Shown: positions 52,118 through 55,929 of the stretch, piece after piece
Layout: each line of letters starts with the position of its first letter
Numbering within the stretch: the stretch's first letter is position 1
Source: Escherichia coli
GTDB taxonomy: Bacteria > Pseudomonadota > Gammaproteobacteria > Enterobacterales > Enterobacteriaceae
NCBI RefSeq assembly: GCF_003334815.1
Contig: NZ_QOWO01000003.1
Length of the DNA stretch: 64,000 nt
Reading direction: 5' to 3' (one strand)
Program-made: the position numbers and the translations under genes
Notes under the pieces: generated by a model
Database searches by the model: none
Told to the model about the DNA's origin: nothing
What the model saw: the letters and a program-made list of their open reading frames with translations, nothing else

Positions 52118-54265
52118 TTACGCCAGTGCCGCTTCGCGCAGGCGAGTTTTCAACTTGTTGTACTCGTCAATCACGTACTGCTCGGCGGCGCGCTGATCGG
52201 CGATCGGCTCGACGCGAACGGCGCAGTATTTGTACTCCGGCGTTTTCGTAATCGGGCTTAAGTTTTCAGTAACCAGCTCGTTACAGGCACCAATCCACCA
52301 CTGGTAGGTCATGTAAATCGCCCCTTTGTTCGGACGATCGCTGACCTGCGCACGGGTGATAATTTTGCCTTTACGCGAGTGCACCCAAACCAATGCCTCA
52401 TCTTCAATACCCAGACGTTTGGCGTCTTCGGTATTGATTTGTGCGTAGCCAGGTTCATCAGCCAGCGCCGCCAGTGCCGCACAGTTACCGGTCATCGAAC
52501 GGCAAGAGTAGTGACCAACTTCACGCACCGTTGACAGTACCATCGGGTACTCGTCGGTGAGTTTGTCGATTGGCGCTACCCAGTCGCAGGTGAAGAACTG
52601 CGCCAGACCGTTCGGGGTATCAAACTTCTCTTTAAACAGATAAGAAGTCCCCTGATCGGCATCTGAAGTATCGCGGCAAGGCCACTGAATGAAGCCCAGT
52701 TCGCCCATTTTCTCGTAAGTCGCACCGTAGAAATCCGGGCACAGATGACGCAACTCATCCCAGATCTCCTGGGTGTTGTTGTAGTGCATCGGATAACCCA
52801 TACGGGTGGCGATTTCACTGATGATTTGCCAGTCCGTTTTCAGATCCCATTTCGGTTCAACCGCCTTGAAGAAACGCTGGAAGCCACGGTCAGCCGCAGT
52901 AAACACGCCTTCATGCTCGCCCCACGACGTTGACGGTAAAATAACATCCGCCGCCGACGCGGTTTTGGTCATAAAGATGTCCTGAACGATAACCAGTTCC
53001 AGATCTTCAAAGGCTTTACGTACTGCCGACAGCTCCGCGTCAGTTTGTAGCGGATCTTCGCCCATAATGTACGCGGCACGCACTTCGCCATGCGCTGCGC
53101 GGTGCGGCAGCTCGCTGATGCGATAGCCGGTATGCGCTGGCAGGCTTTCCACGCCCCAGGCTTTGGCGAATTTCTCGCGGTTAGCCGGATCTTTCACGTA
53201 CTGGTATCCCGGATACGTATCCGGCAGCGCGCCCATATCGCAGGCACCCTGAACGTTGTTCTGACCACGAACCGGGTTAACACCCGCATGCGGCTTACCG
53301 AGGTTACCGGTCAGCATCGCGAGGCTGGTCAGAGAACGCACGGTTTCCACGCCCTGGTAGAACTGGGTTACACCCATGCCCCACAGGATGGCGGCGCTTT
53401 TCGCCTGGGCATACATCCGTGCCGCCTGACGAATCTCACTGGCGCTGACGCCGGTGATATCTTCAACCGACTCCGGCGTGTAGCCTTCAACGATTTTACG
53501 ATACTCTTCAAAGCCTTCTGTACGTGAAGCGACGAACGCTTTGTCGTACAGATTTTCTTCAATAATGACATGGCCCATCGCATTCAACAGCGCGATGTTC
53601 GAGCCGTTTTTCAGTGCAATGTGCATGTCAGCAATGCGCGCGGTTTCAATTTTGCGCGGATCGCAGACGATAATTTTCGCCCCGTTACGTTTAGCGTTAA
53701 TTACGTGATTCGCCACGATTGGGTGGGAATCCGCCGGGTTGTACCCGAAAACGAACACTAAATCGGTATTATCAATTTCGTTAATAGCATTGCTCATTGC
53801 GCCATTACCGACCGATTGGTGCAGACCTGCAACCGATGGGCCGTGTCAGACACGAGCGCAGCAGTCAACGTTATTGGTACCAATAACGGCGCGCGCAAAT
53901 TTTTGCATTACATAGTTGGTTTCGTTACCCGTACCACGCGAGGAGCCGGTCGTCTGGATGGCATCCGGACCGTACTTCTCTTTGATGGCGCTCAGGCGCT
54001 CGGCAACGTAATTCAGTGCCTCATCCCAGGAAACAGGTTCGAGTTTGCCGCCACGCTGGCGACGGATCATGGGGGTTTTCAGGCGCGGGGTCAGGATCTG
54101 GGTATCGTTAATGAAGTCCCAGCCATAATAACCCTTCAGACACAGGGTACCCTGGTTGGTTTTCCCCTGCGCTGCCTCCGCCCGGACGATTTTGCCGTTA
54201 TCGACGACCAGGTTGATTTTGCAACCTGATGCGCAATAGGGGCAAACCGTGACGACTTTTTTCAT
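52118..54265 (-). CDS. fdhF: Formate dehydrogenase H selenoprotein FdhF (715 aa with in-frame TGA = selenocysteine at codon 140)
   Basis: Track ORFs 53846..54265 (MKKVVTVCPYCASGCKINLVVDNGK...NVDCCARV) and 52118..53797 (MSNAINEIDNTDLVFVFGYNP...) are in the same frame, separated only by TGA (complement 53846..53848). Read-through gives ...CARV-U-HGPSVAGLHQSVGNGAMSNAINE... Confidence 0.95.
53798..53845 (-). other. Bacterial SECIS stem-loop immediately 3' of the fdhF UGA codon
   Basis: Minus-strand sequence after TGA: cacggcccatcggttgcaggtctgcaccaatcggtcggtaatggc, with stem ggttgcagg / cctgcacc-like pairing around a small apical loop. Confidence 0.8.
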
Positions 54266-54314
54266 CGGTCTCGCTCCAGTTAATCAAATCACGCATACGC
54301 GCTCTCGACTACAG

Positions 54315-54332
54315 TATGCATCTTTTATGCCA
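54315..54332 (-). promoter_or_regulatory. Sigma-54 (-24/-12) promoter of fdhF
   Basis: Minus strand TGGCATAAAAGATGCATA: GG and GC spaced 10 bp apart as in the TGGCAC-N5-TTGCA consensus, about 50 nt upstream of fdhF ATG. Confidence 0.7.
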
Positions 54333-54462
54333 CATTTTATGTGGGGTCATTCCCTGATATTACGGGCACTATTTATTCAAAACTCTGACGAAAAACAGGC
54401 TGTCGTCAGTTTTGACGTGACGAAACGAAATACCGCGTGACAGCCATCACGCGGCAGACATT

Positions 54463-55929
54463 TTATTTTTTCTCGACGACGGGACCTGCCTGATACCCGC
54501 CGCCCAGCGATTTCATCAACTGAATGCTTTGGATCACCCGGCGGCTGTCCAGCATCAGTAATGACATCTCTTCGGCAAGCACTGGCAACCGGGCTTCGGT
54601 GGCCTGTAAGCGGCTGGTTAAGCCGCGCTGATAGGCGGCCTCGGCAGCGCGCTGGGTAAAGCGCGTGGCTTCCACGCGTTCAGCCTGCATTTCTCGCTCG
54701 TCGTTGAGCGTTTGCAGACGCGTGCCGTTGACGGCAACGTCACGCACCGCGTTCAGTACTGACTGGTTGTAACGTTCAATCATCATGTTGCTGGCGGCGC
54801 GCGTGCCTTCGAGATTGGCATTCAACCGTCCACCGTCAAACAGCGGCAATTTCAGACCCGGGATGAAGTTGAACTGGCGACTGGTTTTTTTGAATAAGGT
54901 ATGCAGATGGATGGAGTCCAGACCGAAAAACGCTTTGATATCAAAGCTCGGATAGAACAACGCCCGCGCGGAATCCACCTGATCTAATGACGCCTGAACA
55001 TACCAGCGCATGGCTTGCAGATCCGGGCGTCTGGCGAGCAACTCATAAGAGAGTGTCGCCGGAATGCCGGTCTGGACTTGCGGTAATGCCACCGGTCTGA
55101 TCTCCGGCATATCGCTGGCTCCCGCGCCAATCAATGCACGCAGAGATTCTCGCGTTTCGGTGATTTGCCCTTTGACGGCAACAATTTGTTTATCGACCGC
55201 CAGAATCTGTGCCCGCGCGCCGTGGAAAGGCACTTGCGCTTCCAGACCGTGCGCCACTTTACTCTGGTGCGCTTTCACCGCGTAATCAATCACATCGTGA
55301 GTTTGTTCTAACAGATCGAGCATCTGATAGCTGGCCTGCATACTGTAATAAAGCTGCGCTACGCCCGTGGCCAGCGATAGCTCTACTGCTGCGGTTTCTG
55401 CCAGCGCGGCATTATGCGCGCCAATGGCGGCGGCAACCGCTGAGCGATGCACACCCCACAAATCAAGATCCAGTCCGGCAAACAAACCTACTGTGGCTTC
55501 CGTATAGTACGGCCCGTCCATACCCAGTGCTGGCGCATCCATTGAATAAGGGCTTAAAAAGCCGTTCGCCGAGACACGTTGGCGGTTGAGCATCCCTAAC
55601 GCTGCGACCTGTAATTGTGAACCGGCATCTAACAAATCGGCCTGGGACTGCGCTTTTTCTTCCCGCAGTTTCGCTTCGGCGAGGGTGTGTGAACCACTTA
55701 GCGTCCGTTGGATCAGCGCATCCAGCTGCGGGTCATTGAGTTGTTTCCACCACTGCGCCTGCGGCCAGCCGGAGCTGGCAAGATGAATATCGTCGGCCAG
55801 TTTGATTTGTTCCGGTTTGAGCTGTTGATGAGGTGCAGAATCCTTACGTACCAGGGCACAGCCGGAAATCAGCGTCGTGCTGCCGAGAATGCTGCACAAC
55901 AGCAGACGTGAAAGTTGACGATTGATCAT
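54463..55929 (-). CDS. mdtP: Outer-membrane efflux factor MdtP (488 aa)
   Basis: MINRQLSRLLLCSILGSTTLISGCALV lipobox; OMF/TolC-family protein; ATGA overlap with mdtO. Confidence 0.95.
   Translation of the reverse strand: MINRQLSRLLLCSILGSTTLISGCALVRKDSAPHQQLKPEQIKLADDIHLASSGWPQAQWWKQLNDPQLDALIQRTLSGSHTLAEAKLREEKAQSQADLLDAGSQLQVAALGMLNRQRVSANGFLSPYSMDAPALGMDGPYYTEATVGLFAGLDLDLWGVHRSAVAAAIGAHNAALAETAAVELSLATGVAQLYYSMQASYQMLDLLEQTHDVIDYAVKAHQSKVAHGLEAQVPFHGARAQILAVDKQIVAVKGQITETRESLRALIGAGASDMPEIRPVALPQVQTGIPATLSYELLARRPDLQAMRWYVQASLDQVDSARALFYPSFDIKAFFGLDSIHLHTLFKKTSRQFNFIPGLKLPLFDGGRLNANLEGTRAASNMMIERYNQSVLNAVRDVAVNGTRLQTLNDEREMQAERVEATRFTQRAAEAAYQRGLTSRLQATEARLPVLAEEMSLLMLDSRRVIQSIQLMKSLGGGYQAGPVVEKK

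What the first reader, a model, noticed from the sequence alone, without database searches (positions are those of the whole stretch)
54315..54332. Sigma-54 promoter upstream of fdhF
TGGCATAAAAGATGCATA on the fdhF strand fits the -24 GG / -12 GC spacing, consistent with FhlA-activated transcription. With pspG this makes two sigma-54 promoters in one window.
Basis: partly seen in the sequence, partly recalled or inferred. Interest (0 to 1): 0.25.

Follow-up and report, generated by a model that had tools for sequence, protein, structure and literature searches.

The report
Known sigma-54 promoter of fdhF

Summary
The 18-mer TGGCATAAAAGATGCATA is on the minus strand at 54332→54315. GG and GC are separated by the canonical 10 nt, and the element ends 51 nt upstream of the fdhF ATG (54265). 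The window is E. coli K-12-type DNA.

The sequence alone is no better than chance: the simple pattern gives 1 hit against 1.04 expected, and an equal PWM score arises 0.83 times per shuffled window. Context settles it:
- It is the top-scoring σ54 site in the window, and pspG is second.
- It is the exact motif under a published σ54 ChIP-seq peak (OS41), flagged there as experimentally confirmed in EcoCyc.
- A published in-vitro σ54 holoenzyme SELEX screen has a peak in the fdhF–mdtP spacer.
- The Salmonella orthologue is σ54-bound, and fdhF there is σ54-dependent.
- TGGCA/TGCAT is invariant in 78 of 80 enterobacterial species.

A conserved enhancer block (54381–54428) carries three TCGTCA/TGACGA hexamers. 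It sits at a fixed 90 or 81 nt from the −24 element, about −117 to −80 from the predicted start (54306).

Two caveats: the primary TSS-mapping papers could not be read, and two more weak σ54 ChIP-seq sites (malK upstream, inside plsB) lie in the window.

The parts
54317..54333 (-). Sigma-54 (RpoN) -24/-12 promoter element of fdhF, GTGGCATAAAAGATGCA (GG 54331-54330, GC 54319-54318).
   Evidence: Sequence. Top PWM hit in the window, 15.57. Exact motif under ChIP-seq peak OS41. TGGCA and TGCAT invariant in 78 species.
54305..54307 (-). Predicted transcription start (about 54306), giving a 41-nt leader
   Evidence: Inferred from the convention of 19 nt downstream of the motif centre. This equals the 'distance 41' for fdhF in Bonocora et al. 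Table 1. It was not checked against a primary TSS map.
54381..54428 (-). Upstream activating sequence (enhancer), the inferred FhlA binding region. It has three TCGTCA/TGACGA hexamers at 54418-54423, 54403-54408 and 54386-54391, including the palindrome CGTCA-N4-TGACG. It lies about -117 to -80 from the predicted TSS.
   Evidence: Conserved block with 0.80 pairwise identity, against 0.32 immediately upstream. The only 50-nt span in 64 kb with three such hexamers. Fixed 90/91- or 81/82-nt spacing to the -24 element in 76 species. Related hexamer clusters at hyc/hyp, hydN and hyfA.
54334..54365 (-). Conserved spacer block between enhancer and promoter (CCGTAATATCAGGGAATGACCCCACATAAAAT). Role not established.
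   Evidence: Pairwise identity 0.71, against 0.56 for the distal spacer and 0.48 around the TSS. No convincing or conserved IHF consensus.
54274..54277 (-). Shine-Dalgarno GGAG of fdhF, within the conserved TTAACTGGAGC
   Evidence: Sequence. Conserved in the orthologue printouts.
52118..54265 (-). fdhF coding sequence (formate dehydrogenase H, 715 codons), with the in-frame UGA selenocysteine codon at 53846-53848
   Evidence: ORF list. MG1655 annotation. The SECIS hit lies immediately 3' of the UGA.
54431..54456 (-). Terminator-like hairpin ending the upstream mdtNOP operon, abutting the enhancer. It insulates fdhF from read-through.
   Evidence: Terminator scan. RNA fold -19.6 kcal/mol, z = -4.13.
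17799..17815 (+). pspG sigma-54 promoter, TTGGCATGATTCTTGTA. It is not part of the fdhF unit.
   Evidence: Sequence. Second-best PWM hit, 15.12. ChIP-seq OS40. gSELEX.

Best explanation
This is the sigma-54 (RpoN)-dependent promoter of fdhF, the gene for the selenoprotein formate dehydrogenase H of the formate hydrogenlyase complex.

RNA polymerase carrying sigma-54 binds the -24 GG / -12 GC element (54317-54333, minus strand) as a stable closed complex that cannot start transcription alone. The enhancer-binding AAA+ ATPase FhlA, activated by formate, binds the conserved hexamer cluster about 100 bp upstream (54381-54428). It contacts the closed complex by DNA looping and uses ATP hydrolysis to open the promoter. 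Transcription then starts near 54306 and reads a 41-nt leader into fdhF.

Shown here:
- the motif, its geometry and its rank in the window;
- its invariance across enterobacteria;
- a conserved enhancer block at fixed spacing;
- the absence of a sigma-70-type promoter;
- a terminator upstream.

Taken from papers read here:
- sigma-54 occupancy in vivo and in vitro;
- sigma-54 and FhlA dependence of fdhF expression;
- formate responsiveness.

Inferred: the exact start site, which bases FhlA contacts, and looping.
For: - Geometry: GG-N10-GC on the fdhF strand, ending 51 nt before the ATG.
- Rank: best sigma-54 PWM score in 64 kb with fdhF and pspG excluded from training. It sits at the 75th percentile of 133 bona fide ChIP-seq motifs.
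- ChIP-seq: Bonocora et al. 2015 (PMC4591121), peak OS41, motif GTGGCATAAAAGATGCA, fold-above-threshold 41, minus strand, 41 nt from predicted TSS to fdhF, EcoCyc 'confirmed'.
- In vitro: Shimada et al. 2021 (PMC8743547), gSELEX with reconstituted RpoN holoenzyme gives a peak in the fdhF-mdtP spacer.
- Salmonella: Samuels et al. 2013 (PMC3844500). fdhF is up 29-fold in a sigma-54-dependent way, and ChIP-chip places the site at the orthologous TGGCATAAAACATGCATA.
- Proteus mirabilis: fdhF promoter reporter activity falls in fhlA and rpoN mutants (PMC7658346).
- E. coli: fdhFP::lacZ is a formate-responsive reporter (PMC8914244), and PfdhF with fhlA works as a formate biosensor (PMC6540204).
- Conservation: 78 of 80 species carry a strong motif 35-68 nt before the fdhF ATG. 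TGGCA and TGCAT are invariant. The 17-mer has 0.90 identity against 0.70 at third-codon positions.
- Enhancer: conserved block (0.80 identity), a unique three-hexamer cluster, and spacing of 90/91 nt in 68 species and 81/82 nt in 8.
- No sigma-70-like promoter in 54000-54800.
- A strong terminator hairpin directly upstream.
Against: - The motif alone is not statistically unusual in 64 kb.
- The published 16-bp FhlA palindrome CATTTCGTACGAAATG does not match the enhancer. The best match has 7 mismatches, and only the half-site TTTCGT/ACGAAA recurs, three times.
- The published 14-position FhlA matrix scores the core only 8.56, while 53 sites elsewhere in the window score 9 or more. FhlA binding to these particular bases is therefore inferred from position, conservation and literature, not from a motif match.
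- No primary TSS map could be read.
- Choosing the best PWM hit in each orthologue inflates the apparent invariance somewhat. The fixed distance to the independently located enhancer argues that the sites are homologous.
Confidence: 0.97

Rival explanations
1. Chance match: a GG-N10-GC string that happens to lie upstream of fdhF and does nothing.
For: The simple pattern occurs once against 1.04 expected. Shuffled windows reach the same PWM score 0.83 times on average.
Against: [quoted passage not shown] TGGCA/TGCAT is invariant in 78 species, while the flanking leader and the DNA upstream of the enhancer drift to 0.48 and 0.32 identity. The two best hits in the window both sit in sense orientation just before a start codon.
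Confidence: 0.01
2. [quoted passage not shown]
For: Bonocora et al. stress that binding does not prove promoter function. fdhF was not among the genes induced by sigma-54 overexpression under their aerobic conditions.
Against: No sigma-70-like promoter is found in 54000-54800. A strong terminator hairpin ends mdtP just upstream. Salmonella fdhF rises 29-fold in a sigma-54-dependent way when an active enhancer-binding protein is supplied. The Proteus fdhF reporter needs rpoN and fhlA. Lack of induction without active FhlA is what a sigma-54 promoter should show.
Confidence: 0.01
3. A sigma-54 promoter, but driven mainly by an enhancer-binding protein other than FhlA, for example its paralogue HyfR, or NtrC.
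For: The enhancer matches neither published description of the FhlA site well. The hyfA upstream region carries a related inverted repeat, GCGACAC-GG-GTGTCGA, so paralogue cross-talk is conceivable.
Against: All papers read assign fdhF to FhlA. An fhlA mutant loses fdhF promoter activity in Proteus. gSELEX lists fdhF as bound by holoenzyme alone and does not list it as an NtrC target.
Confidence: 0.01

Closest known systems
The fdhF promoter (fdhFp) of E. coli K-12, as catalogued in EcoCyc and mapped by sigma-54 ChIP-seq (Bonocora et al. 2015, site OS41)
   Same: Identical. Same 17-mer, same strand, same 41-nt distance from predicted TSS to ATG, and 601 bp 100% identical to MG1655.
   Different: Nothing at the promoter. 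The window as a whole differs from MG1655 (U00096.2) by a net 112 bp between pspG and fdhF.
Salmonella Typhimurium fdhF (STM4285) sigma-54 promoter
   Same: Orthologous position and the same architecture. TGGCATAAAACATGCATA is bound by sigma-54 in ChIP-chip, with FhlA listed as activator. The S. enterica arizonae locus L012 has the same enhancer at 90-nt spacing.
   Different: One base differs in the spacer between -24 and -12 (AAAACA vs AAAAGA). The first enhancer hexamer is TCGACA rather than the Escherichia TCGTCA.
The other FhlA-regulon promoters of E. coli: hycA, hypA, hydN, hyfA
   Same: Sigma-54 -24/-12 elements, with clusters of TGTCGA/TCGACA/TGTCAT-type hexamers roughly 60-110 nt upstream.
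   Different: The hexamer arrangement differs. fdhF has TCGTCA-N9-TGACGA-N12-CGTCA. hyc/hyp has TGTCGACGTGTCATTTCGACATCATCGACA. No 8-mer from the fdhF enhancer recurs in the hyc/hyp or hyfA regions.
pspG promoter (PspF-dependent), 36.5 kb away in the same window
   Same: Same promoter class, with a similar PWM score (15.12 vs 15.57) and a short leader.
   Different: Different activator (PspF) and signal (envelope stress). Non-canonical -12 (TTGT instead of TGC).

Membership tests
Sigma-54 (RpoN) -24/-12 promoter | GG and GC doublets separated by exactly 10 nt, within TGGCAC-N5-TTGCW-like context | tested here: met
   TGGCAT-AAAAGA-TGCA, with GG at 54331-54330 and GC at 54319-54318. Matches TGGCAYN6TGCW exactly.
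Sigma-54 (RpoN) -24/-12 promoter | Matrix score within the range of experimentally bound sites | tested here: met
   Score 15.57 against a training median of 14.35, higher than 100 of 133 ChIP-seq motifs, with the site itself excluded from training. Best in the window.
Sigma-54 (RpoN) -24/-12 promoter | Sense orientation a short distance upstream of a gene, with no competing sigma-70 promoter | tested here: met
   The 17-mer ends 51 nt before the ATG. There are 0 sigma-70-like sites in 54000-54800.
Sigma-54 (RpoN) -24/-12 promoter | Occupancy by sigma-54 holoenzyme | not testable with these tools
   From papers: ChIP-seq OS41 with FAT 41, gSELEX peak in the fdhF-mdtP spacer, and Salmonella ChIP-chip at the orthologous motif.
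Sigma-54 (RpoN) -24/-12 promoter | Transcription start about 12 nt downstream of the GC, and rpoN-dependent transcript | not tested
   The primary mapping papers (Birkmann et al. 1987; Birkmann and Boeck 1989) are not held. [quoted passage not shown]
Sigma-54 (RpoN) -24/-12 promoter | Purifying selection on the -24 and -12 elements | tested here: met
   TGGCA and TGCAT are invariant in 78 of 80 species. Identity is 0.90 against 0.70 at third-codon positions. In the two exceptions the element is visibly decayed or deleted.
FhlA (formate regulon) enhancer-dependent promoter | Conserved upstream activating sequence about 100 bp upstream of the start | tested here: met
   Block 54381-54428, -117 to -80 from the predicted TSS, with 0.80 identity. 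Fixed 90/81-nt spacing. A unique three-hexamer cluster in the window.
FhlA (formate regulon) enhancer-dependent promoter | Match to the published FhlA consensus CATTTCGTACGAAATG (Leonhartsberger et al. 2000, as quoted in PMC4987338) | tested here: not met
   The best match in the intergenic region has 7 of 16 mismatches. Only the half-site TTTCGT/ACGAAA recurs, three times.
FhlA (formate regulon) enhancer-dependent promoter | Match to the published 14-position FhlA matrix (PMC7658346, Table 2) | tested here: inconclusive
   The core CGTCAAAACTGACG scores 8.56, and 53 sites in the window score 9 or more, so the matrix does not discriminate. However, the best hit falls at the same offset (84-85 nt) in 42 of 80 species, including the diverged Arsenophonus sequence.
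FhlA (formate regulon) enhancer-dependent promoter | Enhancer elements shared with other FhlA-regulated promoters in the same genome | tested here: inconclusive
   Related hexamers (TCGTCA, TCGACA, TGTCGA, TTTCGTC) are present upstream of hyc/hyp, hydN and hyfA. No 8-mer from the fdhF enhancer recurs in hyc/hyp or hyfA, and the arrangements differ.
FhlA (formate regulon) enhancer-dependent promoter | Expression requires FhlA and responds to formate | not testable with these tools
   From papers: a fhlA mutant loses fdhF promoter activity in Proteus. fdhFP::lacZ is formate-responsive in E. coli. PfdhF with fhlA works as a formate biosensor. FhlA is listed as activator.

The most novel reading that the evidence does not exclude
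The 32-nt spacer block between enhancer and promoter (54334-54365, CCGTAATATCAGGGAATGACCCCACATAAAAT) is about as conserved as synonymous sites in fdhF, and clearly more conserved than its neighbours. It does not look like an IHF site. It could be a distinct cis element that has not been assigned, for example a binding site for another regulator that conveys nitrate, oxygen or pH signals, or a sequence-specific bend needed for FhlA-sigma-54 contact at the fixed 90/81-nt spacing. The promoter itself is not novel under any reading.
Probability: 0.2. Interest if true: 0.2.

Novelty: already known. Interest (0 to 1): 0.04.

Why it matters
It matters little as a discovery. The fdhF promoter has been a model sigma-54/FhlA promoter since the late 1980s and is used routinely as a formate reporter and biosensor.

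The useful results are these:
- A bare GG-N10-GC match in 64 kb is not evidence by itself. Here, position, conservation and published binding data carry the case.
- The published FhlA site descriptions (a 16-bp palindrome and a 13-site matrix) agree poorly with each other and with the best-conserved bases of the fdhF enhancer. The 80-species footprint made here would support a better FhlA site model.

Tried and rejected
- Simple pattern and mismatch searches for the sigma-54 consensus do not rise above chance, so they were not used as evidence.
- The published FhlA matrix is too weak to call sites: 53 hits of 9 or more in the window.
- The published FhlA 16-mer palindrome has no acceptable match in the enhancer.
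- IHF as the explanation for the conserved spacer block is not supported. There is only a 2-mismatch match (TATCAGGGAATGA), at the background rate of about 1 per 100 nt, and it is not conserved across species.
- Primary papers are not held: Hopper et al. 1996 (PMC177639), Wang and Gunsalus 2003 (PMC180993), and PMC135417, which I took from memory to be Skibinski et al. 2002. Text searches for 'fdhFp', for UAS with Birkmann, and for transcription start site gave no statement of the mapped TSS or the UAS coordinates.
- Chance motif, idle binding site and non-FhlA activator were considered as rivals and rejected on the evidence listed under each.
- Rfam finds no RNA family in the intergenic region, only the fdhF SECIS.

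Full report
**What is in the sequence.** On the minus strand the window reads ...CACATAAAATG TGGCATAAAAGATGCATA CTGTAGTCGAGAGCGCGTATGCGTGATTTGATTAACTGGAGCGAGACCG ATG.... GG is at 54331-54330 and GC at 54319-54318, with ten bases between them, which is the canonical sigma-54 -24/-12 spacing. The ATG at 54265 opens a 2148-nt frame (52118..54265, minus strand). This frame is interrupted in the mechanical ORF list by an in-frame TGA at 53846-53848.

A megablast of 54100-54700 finds the stretch in 5420 of 5426 complete E. coli genomes. It is 100% identical to K-12 MG1655, lying between mdtP and fdhF, and the MG1655 annotation gives mdtO, mdtP, fdhF and yjcO in that order. Rfam places SECIS_2 (87.1 bits, E = 8.5e-19) at 53799-53853. 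That is directly 3' of the TGA, as expected for the selenocysteine codon of fdhF.

**Is the motif more than chance?** Taken alone, no. TGGCAYN6TGCW occurs once in the window against 1.04 expected from dinucleotide shuffles. The stricter consensus with two mismatches gives 11 hits against 15 expected.

I used the 133 sigma-54 ChIP-seq motifs of Bonocora et al. 2015 other than fdhF and pspG. The fdhF 17-mer (54317-54333, minus) scores 15.57 and is the best site on either strand of the window. The pspG site (17799-17815, plus) is second at 15.12. Both lie in the upper half of the training distribution, whose median is 14.35. Shuffled windows nevertheless produce 0.83 sites of that score on average. 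The case therefore rests on context.

As a rough inference: only a few per cent of strand positions lie in sense orientation within about 100 nt of a start codon, and the two best hits both do.

**Published binding and expression data.**
- Bonocora et al. 2015 (PMC4591121) list intergenic sense site OS41 in Table 1: peak centre 4297443, fold-above-threshold 41, motif GTGGCATAAAAGATGCA, minus strand, gene fdhF, 41 nt from predicted start to gene, flagged 'C' for experimentally confirmed in EcoCyc. pspG is OS40. The geometry in the window reproduces these distances exactly.
- Shimada et al. 2021 (PMC8743547) find a peak in the fdhF-mdtP spacer, and another at pspG, by genomic SELEX with reconstituted RpoN holoenzyme alone.
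- Samuels et al. 2013 (PMC3844500) report that Salmonella fdhF rises 29-fold in a sigma-54-dependent manner when a promiscuous activator is supplied. ChIP-chip puts the binding site at TGGCATAAAACATGCATA, and FhlA is named as the activator.
- In Proteus mirabilis, an fdhF promoter reporter loses activity in fhlA and rpoN mutants (PMC7658346).
- In E. coli, fdhFP::lacZ is a standard formate-responsive reporter (PMC8914244), and PfdhF with fhlA has been built into a formate biosensor (PMC6540204).

**Phylogenetic footprint.** A scan of one genome per species with the first 139 residues of FdhF returned 80 enterobacterial loci, from Escherichia to Arsenophonus. In 78 of them the best sigma-54 matrix hit within 400 nt upstream of the ATG lies 35-68 nt before it and scores 12.7-19.2. 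TGGCA and TGCAT are invariant in all 78.

Among the 64 species with identical enhancer-promoter spacing, mean pairwise identity by segment is:

| Segment | Mean pairwise identity |
|---|---|
| DNA upstream of the enhancer | 0.32 |
| Enhancer block | 0.80 |
| Distal spacer | 0.56 |
| Promoter-proximal spacer block | 0.71 |
| -24/-12 17-mer | 0.90 |
| Start-site region | 0.48 |
| fdhF third-codon positions | 0.70 |

Picking the best matrix hit in each species biases the 17-mer figure upward. The fixed distance to an independently located block shows that the sites are homologous.

The two exceptions are instructive. Entomohabitans (L076) retains TGGCAT, but its -12 reads ACAA. Leclercia sp. 29361 (L080) retains the enhancer and spacer blocks but lacks the -24/-12 segment altogether.

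**The enhancer.** The conserved block is 54381-54428: TTTCGTTTCGTCACGTCAAAACTGACGACAGCCTGTTTTTCGTCAGAG on the fdhF strand. It contains three TCGTCA/TGACGA hexamers, at 54418-54423, 54403-54408 and 54386-54391, and the palindrome CGTCA-N4-TGACG. With the start predicted at 54306, the hexamers span -117 to -80.

This is the only 50-nt span in the 64-kb window with three such hexamers. The distance from the block to the -24 element is 90-91 nt in 68 species and 81-82 nt in 8. That is either identical or about one helical turn shorter, which fits a phased enhancer-promoter pair that communicates by looping.

The other FhlA-regulon promoters of MG1655 (hyc/hyp, hydN, hyfA) carry clusters of related hexamers at comparable distances: TGTCGA, TCGACA, TGTCAT, TTTCGTC. 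The arrangement differs, and no 8-mer from the fdhF enhancer recurs in the hyc/hyp or hyfA regions.

The two published descriptions of the FhlA site fare poorly here. The palindrome CATTTCGTACGAAATG (quoted in PMC4987338 from Leonhartsberger et al. 2000) has no match better than 7 mismatches in the spacer, and only its half-site recurs, three times. The 13-site matrix of PMC7658346 scores the core at 8.56, while 53 other sites in the window reach 9.

What the matrix does show is positional. Its best hit lies 84-85 nt upstream of the 17-mer in 42 of 80 species, including Arsenophonus, where the sequence has diverged to TGTCATTTATGTCG. So FhlA binding to this block is well supported by position, conservation and literature, but the exact contacts are not established here.

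**Surroundings.** No sigma-70-type promoter is detected in 54000-54800 on either strand. One terminator-like hairpin (54456-54431, minus) follows the mdtP stop codon. It folds at -19.6 kcal/mol with z = -4.13, and its T-rich tail runs into the first enhancer half-site. fdhF is therefore insulated from mdtNOP transcription and has no evident alternative promoter.

The promoter-proximal spacer block (54334-54365) is conserved but is not a convincing IHF site. It has one 2-mismatch match at the background rate, and that match is not conserved. Its role is open.

**The 'two promoters in one window' remark.** In the high-stringency ChIP-seq lists, only OS40 and OS41 fall in the coordinate range of the window. 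The low-stringency list adds two sites that I can place in the window by sequence. TCGCCACGATTTTTGCA lies upstream of malK (1594-1610, plus), and CTGGCACATGACTTGCC lies inside plsB (11281-11297, minus). The gSELEX study also reports an NtrC and NtrC-plus-holoenzyme peak in the yjcS-alsK spacer, where my matrix finds nothing above 8. Two established promoters is correct. Two binding sites is an undercount.

**Comparison with the known, and verdict.** This is not merely like the fdhF promoter. It is the fdhF promoter of E. coli K-12, base for base. The defining features of a sigma-54 promoter that can be tested on sequence are all met. Holoenzyme occupancy and sigma-54/FhlA dependence come from papers read here.

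The one item I could not verify is the experimentally mapped start site, because the primary papers are not in the library. From memory, Birkmann and co-workers mapped it in 1987-1989 and placed the UAS at about -110, which agrees with the coordinates above, but I could not check this.

Novelty: already known. Interest: very low. The first reader's observation is confirmed and its interpretation is supported.

Noticed in passing
window 1594-1610 (+) and 11281-11297 (-): Two further sigma-54 motifs, TCGCCACGATTTTTGCA upstream of malK and CTGGCACATGACTTGCC inside plsB (sense). They correspond to low-stringency sigma-54 ChIP-seq peaks 4244590 and 4254270 in Bonocora et al. S2 Table. PWM scores are 11.62 and 13.87.
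   Followed up: partly
window 55408-55424 (-), inside mdtP: TTGGCGCGCATAATGCC is the third-best sigma-54 PWM hit in the window (14.05). It is in sense orientation inside mdtP, about 1.1 kb upstream of the fdhF promoter, and is not in either ChIP-seq list.
   Followed up: no
window about 61.6-61.8 kb (yjcS-alsK spacer; position estimated from published coordinate 4304842): Shimada et al. 2021 report an NtrC peak and an NtrC-plus-RpoN-holoenzyme gSELEX peak here. My sigma-54 matrix finds no site scoring 8 or more in that area.
   Followed up: no
window 54334-54365 (-): The spacer block CCGTAATATCAGGGAATGACCCCACATAAAAT between enhancer and promoter is conserved (0.71 pairwise identity across 64 species), more than the DNA on either side. 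It is not a convincing or conserved IHF site, and its function is unassigned.
   Followed up: partly
loci L002-L081, enhancer to -24 distance: The spacing is quantised. It is 90-91 nt in 68 species and 81-82 nt in 8 (Pluralibacter, Franconibacter and others), a difference of about one helical turn.
   Followed up: partly
L076 1380-1500 (Entomohabitans teleogrylli) and L080 1380-1500 (Leclercia sp. 29361): These are the only two species without the promoter. In L076, TGGCAT survives but the -12 TGCA reads ACAA, and one enhancer hexamer is mutated (TTTCATCAG). In L080 the enhancer and spacer blocks are intact, but the -24/-12 segment is missing as if deleted. This suggests loss or rewiring of fdhF expression in those lineages.
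   Followed up: partly
window 54431-54456 (-): The mdtP terminator hairpin (-19.6 kcal/mol, z = -4.13) abuts the enhancer. Its U-rich tail (UAUUUCGUUUCG) overlaps the first TTTCGT half-site, so terminator and enhancer share bases.
   Followed up: partly
window 53799-53853 (-): The fdhF selenocysteine insertion sequence: Rfam SECIS_2, 87.1 bits, immediately 3' of the in-frame TGA at 53846-53848.
   Followed up: yes
window 54418-54423 (-) vs orthologues: The first enhancer hexamer is TCGTCA in Escherichia, several Citrobacter, Shimwellia and two Kosakonia species (plus one soil MAG), but TCGACA in most other genera. TCGACA is the hexamer that also occurs at hyc/hyp.
   Followed up: no
window 17807 to 54325 (pspG to fdhF motif centres): The distance is 36518 nt here against 36630 in MG1655 U00096.2 coordinates. 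The source strain therefore carries a net 112-nt difference from MG1655 somewhere between pspG and fdhF, although the fdhF promoter region itself is identical.
   Followed up: no
literature (PMC4987338 vs PMC7658346): The two published descriptions of the FhlA binding site are hard to reconcile with each other: CATTTCGTACGAAATG, and a 14-position matrix with consensus TGWC-RAWRAT-GWCA. Neither picks out the most conserved bases of the fdhF enhancer.
   Followed up: partly
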